From contig CAWFXL010000001.1 of assembly GCA_963819815.1 (NCBI GenBank), positions 160,001 to 224,000 of the forward strand: a DNA stretch of 64,000 bases. The letters run 5' to 3'. Of this stretch, positions 43,942 through 61,387 are shown piece after piece. The stretch's first letter is position 1; every line of letters starts with the position of its first letter. The notes beneath the pieces were generated by a model. That model ran no database searches. It had not been told where the DNA came from and was given only the letters and a program-made list of their open reading frames with translations. The position numbers were made by a program, and so were the translations under genes. The stretch is from an uncultured bacterium. GTDB lineage: Bacteria; Babelota; Babeliae; Babelales; Babelaceae.

Positions 43942-44018
43942 GCGCCCGTAGCTCAATTGGATAGAGTACCGGACTTCGAATCCGTTGGTTGTAGGTTCGA
44001 CTCCTACCGGGCGCACCA
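43942..44018 (+). tRNA. tRNA-Arg (anticodon TCG)
   Basis: GCGCCCG/CGGGCGC acceptor stem, loop CTTCGAA, GGTTCGACTCC T-arm, CCA end. Confidence 0.95.
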
Positions 44019-44029
44019 GAGTGCCTTAA

Positions 44030-44106
44030 GCGCCCGTAGCTCAGTAGGATAGAGCGACAGATTCCTAATCTGTAGGCCACAGGTTCAAATCCTGTCGGGC
44101 GCACCA
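44030..44106 (+). tRNA. tRNA-Arg (anticodon CCT)
   Basis: GCGCCCG/CGGGCGC acceptor stem, ACAGA-TTCCTAA-TCTGT arm, GGTTCAAATCC, CCA end. Confidence 0.96.
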
Positions 44107-47503: not shown

Positions 47504-48967
47504 TTAGACATATTCTCTGAATAAATCATCAAGCGTTACTACTCCAGAGATGAGGTCTTCTGAATAGATGGTCTTTTTAAGGCCACTGGCAGAAATCATT
47601 GCAAGATAGAGCGTTTTTCGTGTTTTTGTTTGTTTTGCGAATACTGCGCATTTTTTTTGTAGTACTTGGGCATATTCCTTATCTATTGCAAAAGCCTTTT
47701 CAGTATATTTTATCTCACAGAGCGTTATTGATCGATCCTCTCTATCAAATAATAAATCAATTTGTGCTCCTTGCTCAGGAGAGCCCTTTTTTGGCACGAA
47801 GCGCCATTGGGATGCACCGGCCATTGTGAGATTTACCGCTTGTCTAATCAAAGGGACATGCTTATTGCAAATTGATTCAAAAGCACATCCTGCCCAGCTA
47901 TGCCATGCTGGAGAGTTTTGAACCTTCGTCCAATGTCCTTTCTCTTCCCCCCGTTCTATCATTTCTTTTTTTGGCTCTATCCACTTAAAGTAGAAGAGGC
48001 TATATTCGTCTGACATCTTATAGAAGATCCCTTTCTTTTTGCGACCAAAAGAGGTGAATCGTTGAATGAATCCTGTTTGCTCGAGCACTTCAAGGTGAGA
48101 CTTTAACCAGCCACCTGACTCTTGGACAGTCACCTGATCAAAAAGCTCTTCCTGGCCGATTCCATAACAATGCTGAGCTATAATTCTTGCCAATTCAGCG
48201 TGAATACTATCTTGGCCAAACAGCGTGGCATAGAGGAGCGAAAACTCCTTCAACAGAAAACTATCCTTTTTGAAAGCAAGATACTCAATGTTCTGCATAG
48301 CCGATAATCCAGCCTTTATTTGATCCAAATAAAACGGAATACCACCGATAACCATATAGAGATGGACAATATCATTATTAGCTAGCTTTACTTTCTTATG
48401 TTTCAAATACTCTTTTGTCTGATGCAAGTCGAATGGCTTTAGGTGGATCACCCGAGTAGCACGGTTATAGAGCCCCCCGATATTGTGAATGATATTTTTT
48501 AAAATCCAGTTCGATGCTGAACCGCAAATAATCAACTTAATTCTTCGGTCCATAGACCAATGGCGATTCCAAAAGTAATCGAGCATTTGAAGTAATTGAG
48601 ATTTTCTCGTAACCATCCAAGGAAATTCATCAAAGAACAAGACAATTTTCTTTTTCTGCGATAATTCGATCGTATTAGTGAGCAGATTAAATGTTTCTCT
48701 CCAATCCTTTTTAACACTGAGCTCAGGATGCCCAAAGGCACGAGCGATAGAGTCAGTAAATTGTGCAATTTGTTGCTCTTGAGTCCCGTCCTTTATGCCT
48801 GTTACGTACAAAAAGATGCTATTCGTTTTTTTTGAAAAGGTGTTCCTCACGAGAAATGTTTTTCCAACTCTTCGTCTGCCATAAAGGGCAATAAACTCAG
48901 GGTTGTCTGAATTGTAGGCTTCTTCAAGTATTTCTTTCTCTTCTTTTCTTCCAATAATCTTAAACAT
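47504..48967 (-). CDS. Archaeal-type/STAND-like ATPase with winged-HTH and C-terminal PD-(D/E)XK nuclease domain
   Basis: 'IIGR..E', Walker A 'GRRRVGKT', Walker B 'FFDEFPW', 'CGS', 'GGIPFYL', 'FE...QIDLL...EIKY'. Confidence 0.9.
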   Translation of the reverse strand: MFKIIGRKEEKEILEEAYNSDNPEFIALYGRRRVGKTFLVRNTFSKKTNSIFLYVTGIKDGTQEQQIAQFTDSIARAFGHPELSVKKDWRETFNLLTNTIELSQKKKIVLFFDEFPWMVTRKSQLLQMLDYFWNRHWSMDRRIKLIICGSASNWILKNIIHNIGGLYNRATRVIHLKPFDLHQTKEYLKHKKVKLANNDIVHLYMVIGGIPFYLDQIKAGLSAMQNIEYLAFKKDSFLLKEFSLLYATLFGQDSIHAELARIIAQHCYGIGQEELFDQVTVQESGGWLKSHLEVLEQTGFIQRFTSFGRKKKGIFYKMSDEYSLFYFKWIEPKKEMIERGEEKGHWTKVQNSPAWHSWAGCAFESICNKHVPLIRQAVNLTMAGASQWRFVPKKGSPEQGAQIDLLFDREDRSITLCEIKYTEKAFAIDKEYAQVLQKKCAVFAKQTKTRKTLYLAMISASGLKKTIYSEDLISGVVTLDDLFREYV

Positions 48968-49064
48968 ATGACTCCCAGGATATGTAACTTTTAATATACT
49001 TTCTAATAAGGTTTACATAGAGACGTTTGCAGTGTGCCTGGAATGGCCTTCCTCTATTTGAGAC

Positions 49065-49298
49065 TTATGCCGCGAAGTATAATCTACTATATTCCGCGGT
49101 ATAAAGCGAGGATTTTGATTATACCGCGGAATATAATTTTTTTTCCGACTCGAAATCTTATGCTTTGTTTGGTCGATTAGATAGTGATTTATTAAGACTC
49201 AAATTTATACCGCGAAATATAGATTTTTATATTCCGCGGTATAAATCAGGAATTTTGATTATACCGCGACTTATAATTTTTTATATACCGCGGTATAA
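49065..49298. repeat. Array of seven 17-bp TTATACCGCGGAATATA-like arms forming 40-bp inverted-repeat units
   Basis: Units at 49065-49104, 49119 (left arm only), 49205-49244, 49259-49298; 54-bp period; blocks offset by 140 bp. Confidence 0.95.
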
Positions 49299-49481: not shown

Positions 49482-50354
49482 ATGATGAATGTGATGGTAG
49501 CGCTCCTATGCTCTTTACTATGGGCAGGAGTGACTATTGGAAGTAAAATGCTTTCGGGAGCTCTTCCTTTTTTTGCCTTTGCTTTTCTGCGTTATTCATT
49601 GGCTGCTTTATGCTTACTCCCCATACTACTTATGCGGAAAGATAAGGAAGAGCTGAAAGTACGCTATCTTCCCACTCTTATGTTTTTAGGGTTTACGCTT
49701 GTGTTCCTGTTTAATGCATTATTCTTTAATGCTCTATATTATAGTTCAGCAACATCGGTAGCTCTCATAGGTGCTACTAATCCTATTTTGACTATGCTGG
49801 TATCTGCTGTAGTGTTTAGACATATTCCAAATAGGTACCAGCTTTTAGCGTTTATGCTTTCTTTTGCGGGAGCGGCCTTGGTAATTACCGAAGGAAAAAT
49901 GGGAGTTGCTGTGTTAATGGGAAGTGTTGGAGATTTTCTTATGCTTCTAGGGGTGCTTTGCCAGATACTCTATACTATGGCATTAAATAGGGTGAGTGTT
50001 CACTTTTCGCCGCTATTCCTATCATTTGCTACAATAGTAAGTGGTGTTCTATTTGTGTTTCCCTTTATAATAAGCAAAGAATTTGTTCACGTTGTAACGC
50101 ATCTTACGGTAGGACAATGGGGGATCTTTGCTTTCATTAGCTGCCTTGGAACAGCATTGGCCATCTATCTCTACTCCTATGCTATCAAGCATATGGGCCC
50201 TGCGAGGACTAGCTTAATCGTTTTTAGTTCGATGCCCGTCTTTGTATTCTTGCTTGCATTCCTGATATTGGGAGAGAGCATTTCAGTGTGGCAGCTACTT
50301 GGGGGCATTCTTGTTGTATCTTCATTAGTGATTGGTTTGCGGCATACCCGATAA
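49482..50354 (+). CDS. DMT/EamA family transporter
   Basis: About 10 TM; 'FAFLRY', 'ATNPILT', 'LAFLILGE'. Confidence 0.92.
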   Translation: MMNVMVALLCSLLWAGVTIGSKMLSGALPFFAFAFLRYSLAALCLLPILLMRKDKEELKVRYLPTLMFLGFTLVFLFNALFFNALYYSSATSVALIGATNPILTMLVSAVVFRHIPNRYQLLAFMLSFAGAALVITEGKMGVAVLMGSVGDFLMLLGVLCQILYTMALNRVSVHFSPLFLSFATIVSGVLFVFPFIISKEFVHVVTHLTVGQWGIFAFISCLGTALAIYLYSYAIKHMGPARTSLIVFSSMPVFVFLLAFLILGESISVWQLLGGILVVSSLVIGLRHTR

Positions 50355-50552
50355 TTCGTCAGATAGAGTTTCAATAAATGCACTAATGTTTCTTAAAGTC
50401 TCTACGTAGAATACGCCCATGCCGCATTTTACATCATGGAAGCTAAACTAATTATGCAACCATACTTATGAGTACATAACTCCTTGCCGCTTTTCTGAGA
50501 AACTATAAGATTAAGAAAAAATACGTACGATCTCATTTGTTCAGGAGCAATT

Positions 50553-51425
50553 ATGATGAATGTGATTATAGCACTTCTATGTTCCTTACTTTCGGCGGGA
50601 GTGACGATTGGCGGCAAAATGTTTACGGTAGCTCTTCCGGCATTTGCTTTTGCCTTCTTACGATATGGATTAGCTTCTTTTTTCCTATTGCCCCTTTTCA
50701 TTATAAATAAAGAGAAAGAAGCTGTTAAATTACACGATCTTCCGGTCTTCATGTTTTTAGGGTTTACCCTTGTATTCCTGTTTAATGCACTATTTTTTAA
50801 CGCTTTATATTATAGTTCAGCAACCTCGGTAACGCTTATAGGTGCTACCAATCCGATTTTGACTATGCTCGTCTCAGCCGTGGTTTTTAGACAGGTTCCT
50901 AATAAATATCAAGCGTTGGCATTTCTGTTATCTTTTGTAGGGGCGGTCCTCGTAATTACTGAAGGAGAAATGGCCTTAGAAAAGTTAGGCGGAAATATTG
51001 GAGAATTGCTTATGCTTTTGGCAGTTCTTTGCCAGATAACGTATGGCATGGTATTGAAAAAGGTAAGTGCACATTTTTCTCCTCTAACTCTTTCATTTGC
51101 TACATTGACAACGGGTATACTTTGCGTATTGCCATTTGTTGCCAACAGGGAATTTGTCTCTATCGTAACGAATCTTACCCTTTGGCAATGGGGTATGTTC
51201 GTCTGCATTAGTGGTCTTGGAACGGCCTTAGACATATATCTATACTCACTTGCGATAAAACGTATGGGCCCAGCACAGACGAGCTTAATTATATTTAGTT
51301 CGATGCCTATCTTCGTGTTTTTGCTTGCATTCCTGATATTAGGAGAGGGCATTTCAGCGTGGCAGCTGCTCGGGGGTATCCTTGTTGTATCTTCATTAGT
51401 GGTCGGGTTACGTCATACCCGGTAA
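50553..51425 (+). CDS. DMT/EamA family transporter, tandem paralog
   Basis: Same length (290 aa) and colinear with the previous gene. Confidence 0.92.
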   Translation: MMNVIIALLCSLLSAGVTIGGKMFTVALPAFAFAFLRYGLASFFLLPLFIINKEKEAVKLHDLPVFMFLGFTLVFLFNALFFNALYYSSATSVTLIGATNPILTMLVSAVVFRQVPNKYQALAFLLSFVGAVLVITEGEMALEKLGGNIGELLMLLAVLCQITYGMVLKKVSAHFSPLTLSFATLTTGILCVLPFVANREFVSIVTNLTLWQWGMFVCISGLGTALDIYLYSLAIKRMGPAQTSLIIFSSMPIFVFLLAFLILGEGISAWQLLGGILVVSSLVVGLRHTR

Positions 51426-58282: not shown

Positions 58283-59488
58283 CTATTTTTTTTGATAACG
58301 GCGTAGGGGAAGAAGGGTGATAATGCTGAGAAAGCTTATAATTCCCGCTATGCAAAATGCAGCTTTGGCGCCTATCATACGCCAGATGATTCCTAGTATA
58401 ATACTCGAGAGCAACGCAGCAAGACTATCAATAGTATTGATAATGCCATAACCTGTTCCACGTACATTCTCAGGTAGAACATCCGCAGCAAGAGATTTCT
58501 GTAGACTTACGTAGGTTCCTGCGCTAAATCCTGAAAGGAAGAAGATGCAGAGGGCTGAAATGAGTGAGGTACTCTGCCAGGCAAGAAGAAAACACATAAT
58601 CCCAAAAAATCCAAAGCCTCCTATCCCTAAAGGAATAAGGCGTCCAATCTTATCGCTGATAGATCCCATTGCATAACTTGAAAATGTCTGAATAATATTG
58701 CGGAAAATATACATAAGAGCAACGGTACTTAATGCTACTGCCGCAGAAGCCCCTGGAGAGAGTACTTCTTGCATGCGCAGTACTAAGAGACTTTTATTAA
58801 AATTACCTAATCCAAACATCAGAAAAACCCCCATAAGATAATAGAAAGCCCTGGGTAAGGAATTCTTAAAGATAAACAAGAACGAAAATGGTTCATTGGT
58901 GACAGTATGCGGAACATCTTTGACCAGCATATATATAATAAGACAGGCAAGAACTCCTGGAATGAGCGTTATGAGAAAGAGCTTATGCGGTGACCAGTCA
59001 GCAAGAAAATAGACAATGAGTGGACCAAGTATCGATCCAAGAGTATCAAAGGCCTGTCTAAATCCAAAAGCTCTTCCGTAATAGGCTTGAGGAGTTGAAT
59101 CAGCAATGATAGCACTTCGGGGAGCACTGATGATACCTCTTCCAATCCAGGCTCCTGTCATGAGGAGAAATACGGTAACCCAATGGTTAGCAAAAGCAAG
59201 GAGACCTACGAGTGATCCTGCAAGAAAATAGCCAAAGACAATCATAGGTTTACGGTTCGTAAGCTGGTCACTCAATTTTCCAGCATAGAGACCCGAGAGA
59301 CTTGCTACGGCTGTAGAGGTTCCTCCAATAAGGGCCACATAAGGAGGTGCGGCATCTTTTCCGAGCAACTGAGAAATCAATAGAGGAAGTATGAGTGGTA
59401 CAACTTCATGACTTGCGTCACTCATAGTGCTCGCCAAGCTAAATCCGACGACGTTCTTAGTAAGCCATTGTGGATAAGAAATTTTCAT
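58283..59488 (-). CDS. MFS transporter
   Basis: About 12 TM; 'GKLSDQL..RKP', 'GRAFGFRQAFDTLG', 'GSISDKIGR'; start MKISY after AAAGGAG. Confidence 0.93.
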   Translation of the reverse strand: MKISYPQWLTKNVVGFSLASTMSDASHEVVPLILPLLISQLLGKDAAPPYVALIGGTSTAVASLSGLYAGKLSDQLTNRKPMIVFGYFLAGSLVGLLAFANHWVTVFLLMTGAWIGRGIISAPRSAIIADSTPQAYYGRAFGFRQAFDTLGSILGPLIVYFLADWSPHKLFLITLIPGVLACLIIYMLVKDVPHTVTNEPFSFLFIFKNSLPRAFYYLMGVFLMFGLGNFNKSLLVLRMQEVLSPGASAAVALSTVALMYIFRNIIQTFSSYAMGSISDKIGRLIPLGIGGFGFFGIMCFLLAWQSTSLISALCIFFLSGFSAGTYVSLQKSLAADVLPENVRGTGYGIINTIDSLAALLSSIILGIIWRMIGAKAAFCIAGIISFLSIITLLPLRRYQKK

Positions 59489-59543
59489 GGGATCTCCTTT
59501 TGAAGGAGTATACACAGGTCTTTTTCAAAAAATATAGATTTTG
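59480..59543 (+). repeat. 64-bp direct repeat, copy 1
   Basis: 63/64 identical to 61324-61387. Confidence 0.97.
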
Positions 59544-59692: not shown

Positions 59693-61135
59693 TTAGTTGT
59701 CGGGTGAGAAGATATCTGAAAAATTAATAATTTTTGCAAAAAAACCATTTGCTATAACTTCTTCATCGACGCCATTCACGTGAACTAAAACGGGCCTCAT
59801 TGAAAACCCTTTGGGATGAATCAGATGGGCCATTTTTTTTTGCATCTCTTTTATCACAGCTTTTCCAACGGGGTTTTTGGAAAACTTAAACTCACAAAGC
59901 CATAGCCCCCCGAAATGTGTCTGAATAAGATAATCAATCTGGCATCCAGGGAGCTTATTTGTCTTTCGTTGGAAAAAGGGATTGTCAGATACTATTTCAT
60001 CATGGCTGATTCCTAAGCAGTCCTTAATATATTGGCGATTTCTTAAAACGAGGTTGTCAAATTGCAGACCCATAAGAGAATCCCATCCGGGAAGCAATGA
60101 GAGTGATTTGGCAGTAAATGTATCAGTTTCTATTTTGGGTAGGTTTTTTTCAATATATTTCAAATAAAATCTTACGTAGTTATCGCTTAAGCGAAAATGA
60201 CTTAACCGTGAAGCTTCTCCTGAAGCAATATGCCAAGTATAGTCACGACTGACAAAGCCAGACTTTATAAGATCTTCAAGATATTCGCCTACAGATCCGC
60301 CTTGGTTTAACTCGAGTATTTTAGTTATTTCCTTAAGTTCACGAGCACCGTCTGCAAGGGTCTCAATAATTTTCTTATAGGTTTCAGTGCGCCGGGAAAA
60401 GATGTCATTAAAGATATCTTTAAACTCATGAACCAAAAGACCACGTTTAGTGAAACAGAGTTTGCGAATCGTTTGCTCTGCGGGTAAAGAAGGATTCATT
60501 TCTTCAAGATACCGAGGGACTCCACCGGTTACTGAGAGTACTTTTAGTTTTTCATAGGCCGAAATGAAATCCCCATTCTGAGCCCAAAACTGGTTACACT
60601 CTTTGAGTGGGAGCTCTTCAAGGGTGAGCCGATAAGATATTCGGCCAACGAAACCGGTGCTTGATAAGATGTTTTTATCGATCCACGTAGAAACTGATCC
60701 ACACAGGACAAGAATGAGGTTAGGGTTTTTCGCGAAATAGATGTCCCAGGCGTTCTTGAGTTTCCCTAAAAATTCAGGATCTTTTGAACCCATCCATGAA
60801 ATCTCATCAAATAGAACAATAATCCTACCGGTTTGAATGTCCCTATGCAACAAAATGAAGAGTTTGCTCCAATCGTCAGCAAAAACCTCAGGGGTTCCTG
60901 TTTGAGCGCTTAATTGACGAGAAAACTCATCTAATTGTGACTGCATCGTTGTGGCAGCGACAGGTGGGCTACCGGAAAAGTGGTAGAATGTATGATTCTT
61001 AGCAAATTCTTCAACGAGACGACTTTTGCCGATTCGTCGACGTCCCTGAATAACGACGAGACTTGCAGTTTTTTTTTCAAATAATTCCGAAAGCTCAGCT
61101 AGTTCACGCTTTCTACCAATAAATGGGCGGGCCAT
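59693..61135 (-). CDS. Archaeal-type/STAND-like ATPase with winged-HTH and C-terminal PD-(D/E)XK nuclease domain
   Basis: 'FIGR..E', 'GRRRIGKS', 'LFDEISW', 'CGS', 'GGVPRYL', 'QIDYL...EFKF'; start MARPF after GGAG. Confidence 0.9.
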   Translation of the reverse strand: MARPFIGRKRELAELSELFEKKTASLVVIQGRRRIGKSRLVEEFAKNHTFYHFSGSPPVAATTMQSQLDEFSRQLSAQTGTPEVFADDWSKLFILLHRDIQTGRIIVLFDEISWMGSKDPEFLGKLKNAWDIYFAKNPNLILVLCGSVSTWIDKNILSSTGFVGRISYRLTLEELPLKECNQFWAQNGDFISAYEKLKVLSVTGGVPRYLEEMNPSLPAEQTIRKLCFTKRGLLVHEFKDIFNDIFSRRTETYKKIIETLADGARELKEITKILELNQGGSVGEYLEDLIKSGFVSRDYTWHIASGEASRLSHFRLSDNYVRFYLKYIEKNLPKIETDTFTAKSLSLLPGWDSLMGLQFDNLVLRNRQYIKDCLGISHDEIVSDNPFFQRKTNKLPGCQIDYLIQTHFGGLWLCEFKFSKNPVGKAVIKEMQKKMAHLIHPKGFSMRPVLVHVNGVDEEVIANGFFAKIINFSDIFSPDN

Positions 61136-61167
61136 AGGGTACTCCAATATCAAAAACTTTCTAAAGA

Positions 61168-61262
61168 TCACTAATCATAAATGGAAAAAGCCAATTATGA
61201 TTGGTGAAACTCTGCCCCAAGTTTACCACTCATAATTGGAAAAAGTCGATTATGATTAGTGA
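61168..61262. repeat. Two tandem 40-bp inverted-repeat units (55-bp period)
   Basis: TCACTAATCATAAATGG-AAAAAG-CCAATTATGATTGGTGA and TTACCACTCATAATTGG-AAAAAG-TCGATTATGATTAGTGA. Confidence 0.93.
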
Positions 61263-61323
61263 AACTTTGAGAGCGCTGAATTGTCCTACCTTTTCCATGC
61301 CCCCCGATTGCATGTAGATATGT

Positions 61324-61387
61324 AATTTTCATGGGATCTCCTTTTGAAGGAGTATACATAGGTCTTTTTCAAAAAATATAGATTTTG
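61324..61387 (+). repeat. 64-bp direct repeat, copy 2
   Basis: 63/64 identical to 59480-59543. Confidence 0.97.

What the first reader, a model, noticed from the sequence alone, without database searches (positions are those of the whole stretch)
47504..49298. ATPase-wHTH-nuclease gene headed by a phased array of 40-bp inverted repeats
Seen: 98-331 bp upstream of the gene lie seven CCGCG-core 17-mers in alternating orientation, forming units of 17+6+17 bp at a 54-bp period (about five helical turns), in two blocks 140 bp apart. Established: this ATPase/wHTH/PD-(D/E)XK architecture is widespread and largely uncharacterised, and related STAND-type proteins act in phage defence. Inference: the array is a cognate loading or operator site, or encodes a repetitive hairpin RNA, making a one-gene-plus-array system that I do not recognise as described.
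Basis: partly seen in the sequence, partly recalled or inferred. Interest (0 to 1): 0.85.

Follow-up and report, generated by a model that had tools for sequence, protein, structure and literature searches.

The report
ATPase-nuclease gene with its private operator
The repeats are real and are most likely the docking sites through which this little-studied ATPase-nuclease switches off its own gene; each family member carries its own version of the site, matched to its own DNA-reading helix, which gives a very common uncharacterised protein family a concrete target and a testable recognition code.

Summary
The array is real: seven 17-mers at 49065-49298, found nowhere else in the 1.64-Mb genome. 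The gene is a PF01637/DUF234 (COG1672, PADLOC PDC-S27) Orc1-like ATPase-wHTH-PD-(D/E)XK protein. Arrays of four or more copies head 61 of 87 close and 34 of 76 distant homologs, against 3 of 85 and 1 of 65 downstream controls. One arm fills the spacer of a TTG-N17-TAnnnT promoter. Operator cores differ between homologs, and their similarity tracks one protein segment, residues 280-290 at the start of the wHTH recognition helix. The rule Arg287 to C held in 9 of 12 held-out cases; tree-independent tests agree in direction but are underpowered. In this genome each paralog's dyad occurs only at its own locus, and twelve sister AAA_14/DUF4143 genes have similar arrays. Best reading: cognate autorepression operators with diversified specificity. 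A hairpin RNA is not supported. Antiphage function is unproven: one PDC-S27 tested in print gave no protection. The scan noted such arrays before on other DNA (two findings); the code and paralog privacy were not in the lines I saw of them.

The parts
47504..48967 (-). Gene for 487-aa ATPase_2 (PF01637) + wHTH + DUF234 PD-(D/E)XK protein (COG1672; PADLOC PDC-S27)
   Evidence: (E=8.5e-163)
48857..48880 (-). Walker A (residues 30-37)
   Evidence: K36 and T37 invariant in 110 of 110
48626..48643 (-). Walker B (residues 109-114). The loop after it (residue 122) shows a tentative link to operator position -6
   Evidence: D113 and E114 invariant in 110 of 110
48014..48205 (-). Winged helix-turn-helix (helices 255-264, 272-278, 285-297; wing 301-318)
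   Evidence: AlphaFold secondary structure
48077..48118 (-). Recognition helix with its N-terminal turn (residues 284-297); hypervariable positions 284 and 287 covary with the operator core
47519..47911 (-). PD-(D/E)XK nuclease domain (about residues 353-483); E364, D404, E418, K420 retained
   Evidence: DUF234 hit; 106-108 of 110 conserved
49065..49104 (.). Promoter-proximal dyad (arms 49088-49104 and 49065-49081, 6-bp loop)
49119..49135 (+). Unpaired arm; its partner expected at 49142-49158 has decayed
49136..49204 (.). 69-bp spacer between the two blocks, 71% AT
49205..49244 (.). Middle dyad (arms 49228-49244 and 49205-49221)
49259..49298 (.). Distal dyad (arms 49282-49298 and 49259-49275)
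49081..49109 (-). Predicted promoter in family register: -35 TCGCTT (49109-49104), 17 bp, -10 TAGATT (49086-49081). Inferred; weak at this locus taken alone
   Evidence: register; coordinates; not reported by the consensus scan
59693..61135 (-). Second family paralog in the window (about 25% identical; PDC-S27 E=4.6e-91)
61167..61263 (.). The second paralog's own, different four-arm array

Best explanation
The array is a cis operator read by the protein encoded just downstream. SHOWN (computation): each arm carries a 6-bp variable core at -15..-10 from the dyad centre. Dyad centres recur every 27-28.5 bp (period mostly 55-56 bp, about five turns). One arm fills the spacer of a sigma70 promoter whose -10 box sits in or beside the loop. 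Core sequence tracks residues 284-287 of the wHTH. INFERRED: one protomer binds each arm by putting the N-terminal end of its recognition helix in the major groove, as Orc1 does on origin boxes. Two protomers meet head to head over the -10 box, and several dyads on one helix face allow cooperative, ATP-dependent assembly (the conserved R169 is the likely arginine finger). This blocks RNA polymerase and keeps an intact, probably toxic nuclease at low level. Specificities have diversified, so paralogs in one cell do not repress one another and a newly arrived copy can be expressed. What the nuclease does once released (defence, stress killing or selfish spread) is the least supported step.
For: Arrays of 4 or more copies in both orientations upstream of 61 of 87 loci, vs 3 of 85 downstream and 0 of 87 shuffled; distant set 34 of 76 vs 1 of 65 and 0 of 76. 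In 41 loci with a dyad 29-42 bp before the start: T 39, T 35, G 33 of 41 at -25..-23; T 28, A 37, T 31 of 41 at -2, -1, +3. The promoter score over an arm beats its mirror image on the other strand in 85 of 106 loci (20 lower; p=1e-12). Operator similarity, after removing overall identity, peaks at residues 280-290 (r=0.51; r=0.46 vs permutation maximum 0.11), the start of helix 3 of the wHTH. The same window ranks first in the hold-out set. The rule R287 to C(-11) was fixed beforehand (note): 14 of 14 in training, 9 of 12 vs 4 of 31 in hold-out (p=2e-4). Two 95% identical proteins have 5 of their 25 differences at 281-284 and different cores. Ten of 12 paralog seeds give dyads at their own locus and none at another paralog. 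Of 1090 genome ORFs, 11 have phased arrays: 8 are this family and 2 share those arrays. No conserved neighbour: 153 neighbours in 144 clusters; upstream gene co-directional 45, divergent 27.
Against: No binding or expression data. At the window locus itself the promoter test is a tie (11.4 vs 11.4), the family-register -35 is poor, and the proximal dyad is 117 bp from the ATG rather than about 35. Hold-out r is only 0.24, below the largest permutation maximum of 0.26. Tree-independent pair tests all lean the predicted way, but none reaches significance (3-8 supported pairs, median p 0.125-1). The 286G rule could not be contrasted in hold-out (42 of 43 have G; 37 agree). The 284K/R rule had only 4 cases there (3 agree). 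Of 142 hold-out candidates, 58 were dropped for lack of a confident dyad, 32 as another subfamily and 9 as duplicates. Two of 11 full paralogs in the genome showed no array by the automated tests. The window array also lies upstream of a divergent EamA gene.
Confidence: 0.74

Rival explanations
1. Selfish cassette: array plus gene is a minimal mobile or addictive unit. The protein assembles on its array like an initiator or TnsC-type filament, and the nuclease nicks or cuts nearby, promoting duplication and transfer. Operator types act as immunity groups. This can coexist with autorepression.
For: Patchy in the phylum (33 of 261 genomes) but expanded in this genus (9 of 9 relatives; 11 full copies plus 2 fragments here). 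The tree mixes Chlamydiota, Pseudomonadota and Dependentiae. [quoted passage not shown] A cognate dyad lies just after the stop codon in 5 of 105 loci vs 0 of 525 non-cognate controls. Remnants and an orphan array exist.
Against: The repeat enrichment falls to 7 of 156 (p=0.08) when operator-derived repeats are removed, and is p=0.12 against neighbouring genes. The window gene has no flanking repeat. No empty site was found. No transposase or integrase domain. Rare on plasmids (7 of 72,556) and viral contigs (18 loci).
Confidence: 0.14
2. The array is an origin-like site (ORB-DUE-ORB) and the protein an Orc1-type initiator that opens DNA for local replication.
For: Fold similarity to Orc1/Cdc6 (Z 15.4 to 2qby). 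Two blocks flank a 71% AT spacer here. Haloarchaeal orc/cdc6 genes each sit beside their own diverse ORBs (PMC3528665, abstract).
Against: Most loci have one contiguous block ending about 15 bp before the ribosome-binding site, with no unwinding spacer. Strand-asymmetric promoter signal. The C-terminal nuclease is not part of Orc1. Rare on plasmids and phages.
Confidence: 0.04
3. The array encodes a repetitive hairpin RNA, or extrudes cruciforms, and acts through structure.
For: The strand folds strongly (z=-9.85), as any inverted repeat would. G-U 232 vs A-C 167 on the transcribed strand.
Against: The G-U excess is within what base composition predicts (p=0.11). No Rfam family near its threshold. 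Arms keep one sequence across units within a locus and covary with a DNA-binding helix. The left arm precedes the predicted -10 box.
Confidence: 0.03
4. The array is bound by a different host regulator, or chiefly controls the divergent EamA gene.
For: The window array lies between divergent genes. An orphan array of this type sits before lepA.
Against: Sixty different cores in 110 loci, private to each paralog and tracking the ATPase's own helix. The upstream neighbour is unconserved and mostly co-directional.
Confidence: 0.05

Closest known systems
PF01637 + PF03008 (DUF234) / COG1672 archaeal-type ATPases = PADLOC candidate PDC-S27; solved relatives PAB2304 (2qen) and SSO1545 (2fna)
   Same: Member: PDC-S27 profile over residues 1-483, E=8.5e-163; Z 21.2 and 20.9 over about 300 residues.
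   Different: The papers I read give no target site, operator or mechanism for the family (passages of PMC12988326 and PMC3424549). The two structures (about 350 residues) align only to residues 1-329.
Archaeal Orc1/Cdc6 initiators with adjacent, initiator-specific ORB elements
   Same: AAA+ plus wHTH fold; the gene sits beside inverted cognate boxes that vary between paralogs (PMC3528665, abstract).
   Different: Fused nuclease, bacterial hosts, arms placed on the gene's own promoter, usually no unwinding element; no origin activity shown.
Autoregulated toxic modules: type IV TA antitoxin AbiEi (wHTH on inverted repeats), RM controller (C) proteins, phage immunity repressors (all recalled, not from a call)
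   Same: Self-operator over the promoter of a hazardous gene; diversified specificity groups.
   Different: Here reader, ATPase and effector are one polypeptide with no antitoxin, methylase or partner, and the operator is a phased array of 2-8 arms.
AAA_14 + DUF4143 (COG1373; probably PDC-S01) ATPase-nucleases
   Same: Twelve such genes in this genome also came up with upstream inverted-repeat arrays, mostly private.
   Different: Different arm spacing (about 27-37 bp, no 55-bp period). Helix-operator covariation was not tested for them.
Avs / bacterial STAND-NLR defence systems
   Same: Related NTPase-wHTH fold (Z 12.2 to Avs3, 17.3 to a plant resistosome).
   Different: No C-terminal repeat sensor; the nuclease is C-terminal; the wHTH appears to read DNA; no defence shown.

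Membership tests
PF01637/DUF234 (COG1672, PDC-S27) | N-terminal ATPase_2 domain above the Pfam cut-off with intact Walker A/B | tested here: met
   67.9 bits vs cut-off 33.2; motifs invariant
PF01637/DUF234 (COG1672, PDC-S27) | C-terminal DUF234 PD-(D/E)XK domain with catalytic residues | tested here: met
   33.3 bits vs 22.5; D404, E418, K420 in 106-107 of 110
PF01637/DUF234 (COG1672, PDC-S27) | Full-length match to the PDC-S27 profile; single-gene system | tested here: met
   no conserved neighbour
Autoregulated wHTH repressor with cognate operator | Inverted repeats overlapping the gene's own promoter | tested here: met
   Family-wide; at the window locus alone the test is a tie
Autoregulated wHTH repressor with cognate operator | Operator sequence follows the recognition helix | tested here: met
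   phylogenetically independent tests underpowered
Autoregulated wHTH repressor with cognate operator | Direct binding and repression | not testable with these tools
   needs EMSA and reporter assays
Antiphage defence system | Protects against phage | not testable with these tools
   In print, one PDC-S27 representative was not among the four protective candidates against T4/T5/T7 in E. coli
Antiphage defence system | Defence-island context | tested here: inconclusive
   14 of 128 immediate neighbours hit PADLOC at 1e-10, several of them generic (ankyrin, HTH, Cas12f/TnpB-like); no background rate measured
Avs / STAND-NLR | C-terminal repeat sensor domain with N-terminal effector | tested here: not met
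   487 aa fully accounted for by ATPase, wHTH and C-terminal nuclease
Orc1/Cdc6 origin-initiator pair | AAA+ and wHTH fold | tested here: met
Orc1/Cdc6 origin-initiator pair | Inverted boxes flanking an AT-rich unwinding element | tested here: inconclusive
   Two blocks with an AT-rich gap here, but one contiguous block in most homologs
Orc1/Cdc6 origin-initiator pair | Origin activity | not testable with these tools
   needs an autonomous replication assay
Gene inserted with long target duplication (as RM systems) | Direct repeats over 30 bp flanking the unit, single copy at an empty site | tested here: inconclusive
   Repeats in 9 of 156 loci, none at the window gene; no empty site found
Structured non-coding RNA | Rfam match or wobble-pair bias on the transcribed strand | tested here: not met

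The most novel reading that the evidence does not exclude
COG1672 and COG1373 ATPase-nucleases form a large, unrecognised class of one-gene elements. An Orc1-like ATPase recognises a private phased array through a programmable helix code, polymerises on it and licenses its own nuclease. The array then serves as operator, immunity determinant and mobilisation or self-marking site, letting some 20-30 mutually orthogonal copies accumulate in one 1.6-Mb genome.
Probability: 0.17. Interest if true: 0.87.

Novelty: new variant of a known kind. Interest (0 to 1): 0.62.

Why it matters
PDC-S27 and PDC-S01 are among the most abundant predicted defence genes: 8,065 and 39,480 detections in one survey, with S01 the fourth most common overall (PMC12988326, passages). 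They have no described target or mechanism in what I could read. A cognate site, a promoter position and a residue-to-base code make them testable with a single oligonucleotide. They also suggest why plain heterologous tests could fail: expression level and the native array may matter. A natural set of about 60 operator cores read by one scaffold is also a resource for studying how DNA specificity evolves and for orthogonal repressors.

Tried and rejected
Single-sequence AlphaFold failed (pLDDT 36); the alignment-based model was used instead. PDB sequence search found nothing; NCBIfam gave only a sub-threshold hit. A first IR scorer missed the window's own dyads (score 9.5) and was replaced by repeat-family detection. 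Homodimer prediction gave no verdict (score 0.00). No RNA holder was listed. Rfam gave four sub-threshold miRNA hits, read as chance matches to hairpins. The consensus promoter scan found 3 sites vs 6.3 expected and not the family-register promoter. A full footprint map (wing to -18/-17, ATPase loop 122 to -6/-5) was suggested by column tests, and 122K/R to A(-6) held in 62 of 74 with 35 of 36 others lacking A. The window-level signal did not replicate in hold-out, so it stays tentative. No regulon for the window operator. No cognate gene was found beside the orphan lepA array in six relatives. No synteny or empty site for the window gene. Literature searches for an upstream repeat or autoregulation of this family listed nothing relevant (listings only, open-access library). 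bioRxiv supplements were closed, so I could not see whether the PDC-S27 construct tested in 10.1101/2024.09.26.614923 carried its native array.

Full report
Observation. They form three 17+6+17 dyads and one unpaired arm; the two blocks are a 140-bp-offset duplication. The motif has no other cluster in the 1.64-Mb genome. The gene (47504-48967, minus strand) matches ATPase_2 and DUF234 and PADLOC PDC-S27 over its full length. The AlphaFold model (pLDDT 93) is closest to PAB2304 and SSO1545 (Z 21), then to NLR and Orc1/Cdc6 proteins. Walker A/B, R169 and the nuclease residues are conserved in 106-110 of 110 homologs. The host is probably a Dependentiae bacterium, judged from the title of a near-identical relative of one paralog and an earlier scan note.

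The array belongs to the family. I examined 80 homolog loci and 12 paralog loci of this genome; 5 had too little upstream DNA. Of the remaining 87, 61 have four or more copies in both orientations within 330 bp upstream, against 3 of 85 downstream and 0 of 87 shuffled. In 76 of 80 mostly more distant metagenome loci the counts are 34, 1 of 65 and 0 of 76. Dyad centres recur every 27-28.5 bp, with periods of 55 (37 cases), 56 (18), 57 (6), 54 (4) and 50 (4). Neighbours are not conserved: 153 proteins fall into 144 clusters. As a genome-wide control I scanned 1090 ORFs. Thirty-five had arrays; of the 11 phased ones, 8 are this family, 2 are divergent genes sharing those arrays, and 1 is an orphan before lepA. 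Twelve of the 24 unphased ones are AAA_14 genes, 11 of them with DUF4143. Two of these share one array and one array is distant and weak.

The array sits on the promoter. Aligning 41 loci on the dyad nearest the start gives TTG at -25..-23 and T-A-n-n-n-T at -2..+3, a 17-bp spacer filled by the left arm. The same dyads read on the opposite strand score lower in 85 of 106 loci (p=1e-12), so the signal is not a by-product of symmetry. A second register, 4-5 bp upstream, is common in other subfamilies. At the window locus this evidence is weak: the two strands tie, and the family-register promoter is TCGCTT-17-TAGATT with a longer leader than usual.

The protein's own helix tracks the site. Cores differ widely: 60 distinct hexamers in 110 loci. 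After removing overall identity, operator similarity correlates most strongly with residues 280-290 (r=0.51; 0.46 against a permutation maximum of 0.11); the next unrelated windows reach 0.16. Equally variable segments elsewhere show nothing. This is the turn and first turn of the recognition helix. I fixed four rules before the hold-out: G286 with G(-13), 64 of 67 concordant; K/R284 with G(-15), 19 of 20; R287 with C(-11), 14 of 14; K/R122 with A(-6), 28 of 35, and never with N, 0 of 32. The hold-out kept 43 of 142 candidates. R287 gave C in 9 of 12 against 4 of 31 (p=2e-4). K/R284 gave G in 3 of 4; G286 had almost no contrast; K/R122 gave A in 34 of 39. After seeing the data, T287 gave T in 8 of 10 and W/Y/L/H287 gave G in 8 of 8; the window protein has W287 and G at -11. 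Arg reading the guanine opposite C is standard protein-DNA chemistry (established knowledge). Limits: the hold-out peak is again window 280 but at r=0.24, inside the permutation range. Six tree-independent tests all lean the predicted way and none is significant. Seven helix residues predict the core slightly better than the nearest whole protein (3.90 vs 3.59 of 6 below 60% identity, p=0.03; no difference at 70%). One pair at 95% identity has 5 of 25 substitutions at 281-284 and different cores.

Operators are private. Ten of 12 paralog seeds give dyads at their own locus and none at another paralog. The single outside dyad lies next to a deleted remnant of the family. There is no regulon.

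Mechanism. Shown by computation: a site, its position on the promoter, and its link to the helix. Inferred: one protomer per arm, head-to-head pairs over the -10 box, cooperative assembly along one helix face, and autorepression of an intact nuclease; diversification avoids cross-repression among paralogs. I put this at 0.74. The nuclease's purpose is open. PDC systems were defined by embedding in defence loci and were untested (10.1101/2024.01.29.577857, passages). One PDC-S27 was later tested against T4, T5 and T7 and was not among the protective ones (10.1101/2024.09.26.614923, section 5). Only 14 of 128 neighbours hit PADLOC. A selfish-cassette reading has some support: patchy spread, cross-phylum mixing, long flanking repeats in 9 of 156 loci and downstream operator copies in 5 of 105. 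The repeat enrichment is marginal, and the window gene has none. Origin and RNA readings fit poorly.

Comparison and novelty. It is a member of COG1672/PDC-S27. It works like an Orc1-type reader used as an autorepressor, comparable to AbiEi or C proteins (recalled). It is not an Avs. My searches listed no paper on upstream repeats for this family. Two earlier scan notes reached the self-operator reading on other genomes; I had recorded the same reading before seeing them and tested it here. Added here are the promoter geometry with a strand control, the helix code with a hold-out, privacy among paralogs, and the extension to DUF4143 genes. Verdict: real, a new variant of a known kind of regulation, interest 0.62.

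Noticed in passing
window 59469-59543 and 61313-61387: A 75-bp, 95% identical direct repeat (promoter and first codons of the MFS gene 58283-59515) brackets the second paralog and its array, like a long target duplication.
   Followed up: partly
L225 (G027:C5:2500-8500): At the same site the closest relative has a frameshifted 5' remnant of the paralog, then a glycosyltransferase-like gene, then a second copy of the operator dyad.
   Followed up: partly
L249 (G000:C1 about 1580700-1580850): Orphan five-arm array of this family's type (core GCGCTG, period 51) upstream of lepA with no ATPase gene; no cognate gene in six relatives, though one has a short C-terminal remnant in that interval.
   Followed up: partly
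L252-L254, L256-L263: Twelve AAA_14 (mostly DUF4143) genes of this genome came up with upstream inverted-repeat arrays, mostly private and often ending at a TTGAC box; about 18 near-full copies of that family exist.
   Followed up: partly
L250, L251, L255: A Schlafen AlbA_2/HATPase_c_4 gene, an AbiEi-like gene (label recalled; no Pfam hit) and an HTH_3 gene also carry private upstream inverted repeats.
   Followed up: no
L264 (G000:C1:1467400-1467600) and G000:C1:1039635-1039860: Deleted or truncated family remnants that keep an intact operator dyad.
   Followed up: partly
L076, L077, L108, L110, L198: A cognate dyad directly after the stop codon, so the gene is bracketed by its own operator.
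   Followed up: partly
L091, L110, L127, L130, L143, L150: In these distant homologs the last arm overlaps a TAnnTTTG-like box, recalled as the Bacteroidota promoter element; hosts not determined.
   Followed up: no
L170-L179: A separate, roughly 28%-identity subfamily in other families of this phylum shares one conserved operator (AGCCAA-type arms) and a conserved helix, suggesting a vertically kept member.
   Followed up: no
window 49482-51425: Tandem pair of EamA transporter genes (73% identical) divergent from the ATPase; the first starts 184 bp from the distal arm.
   Followed up: no
window 43942-44106: Two adjacent tRNA-Arg genes about 3.4 kb downstream of the ATPase gene; another paralog (G000:C1:1505856) ends just before a tRNA-like sequence.
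   Followed up: no
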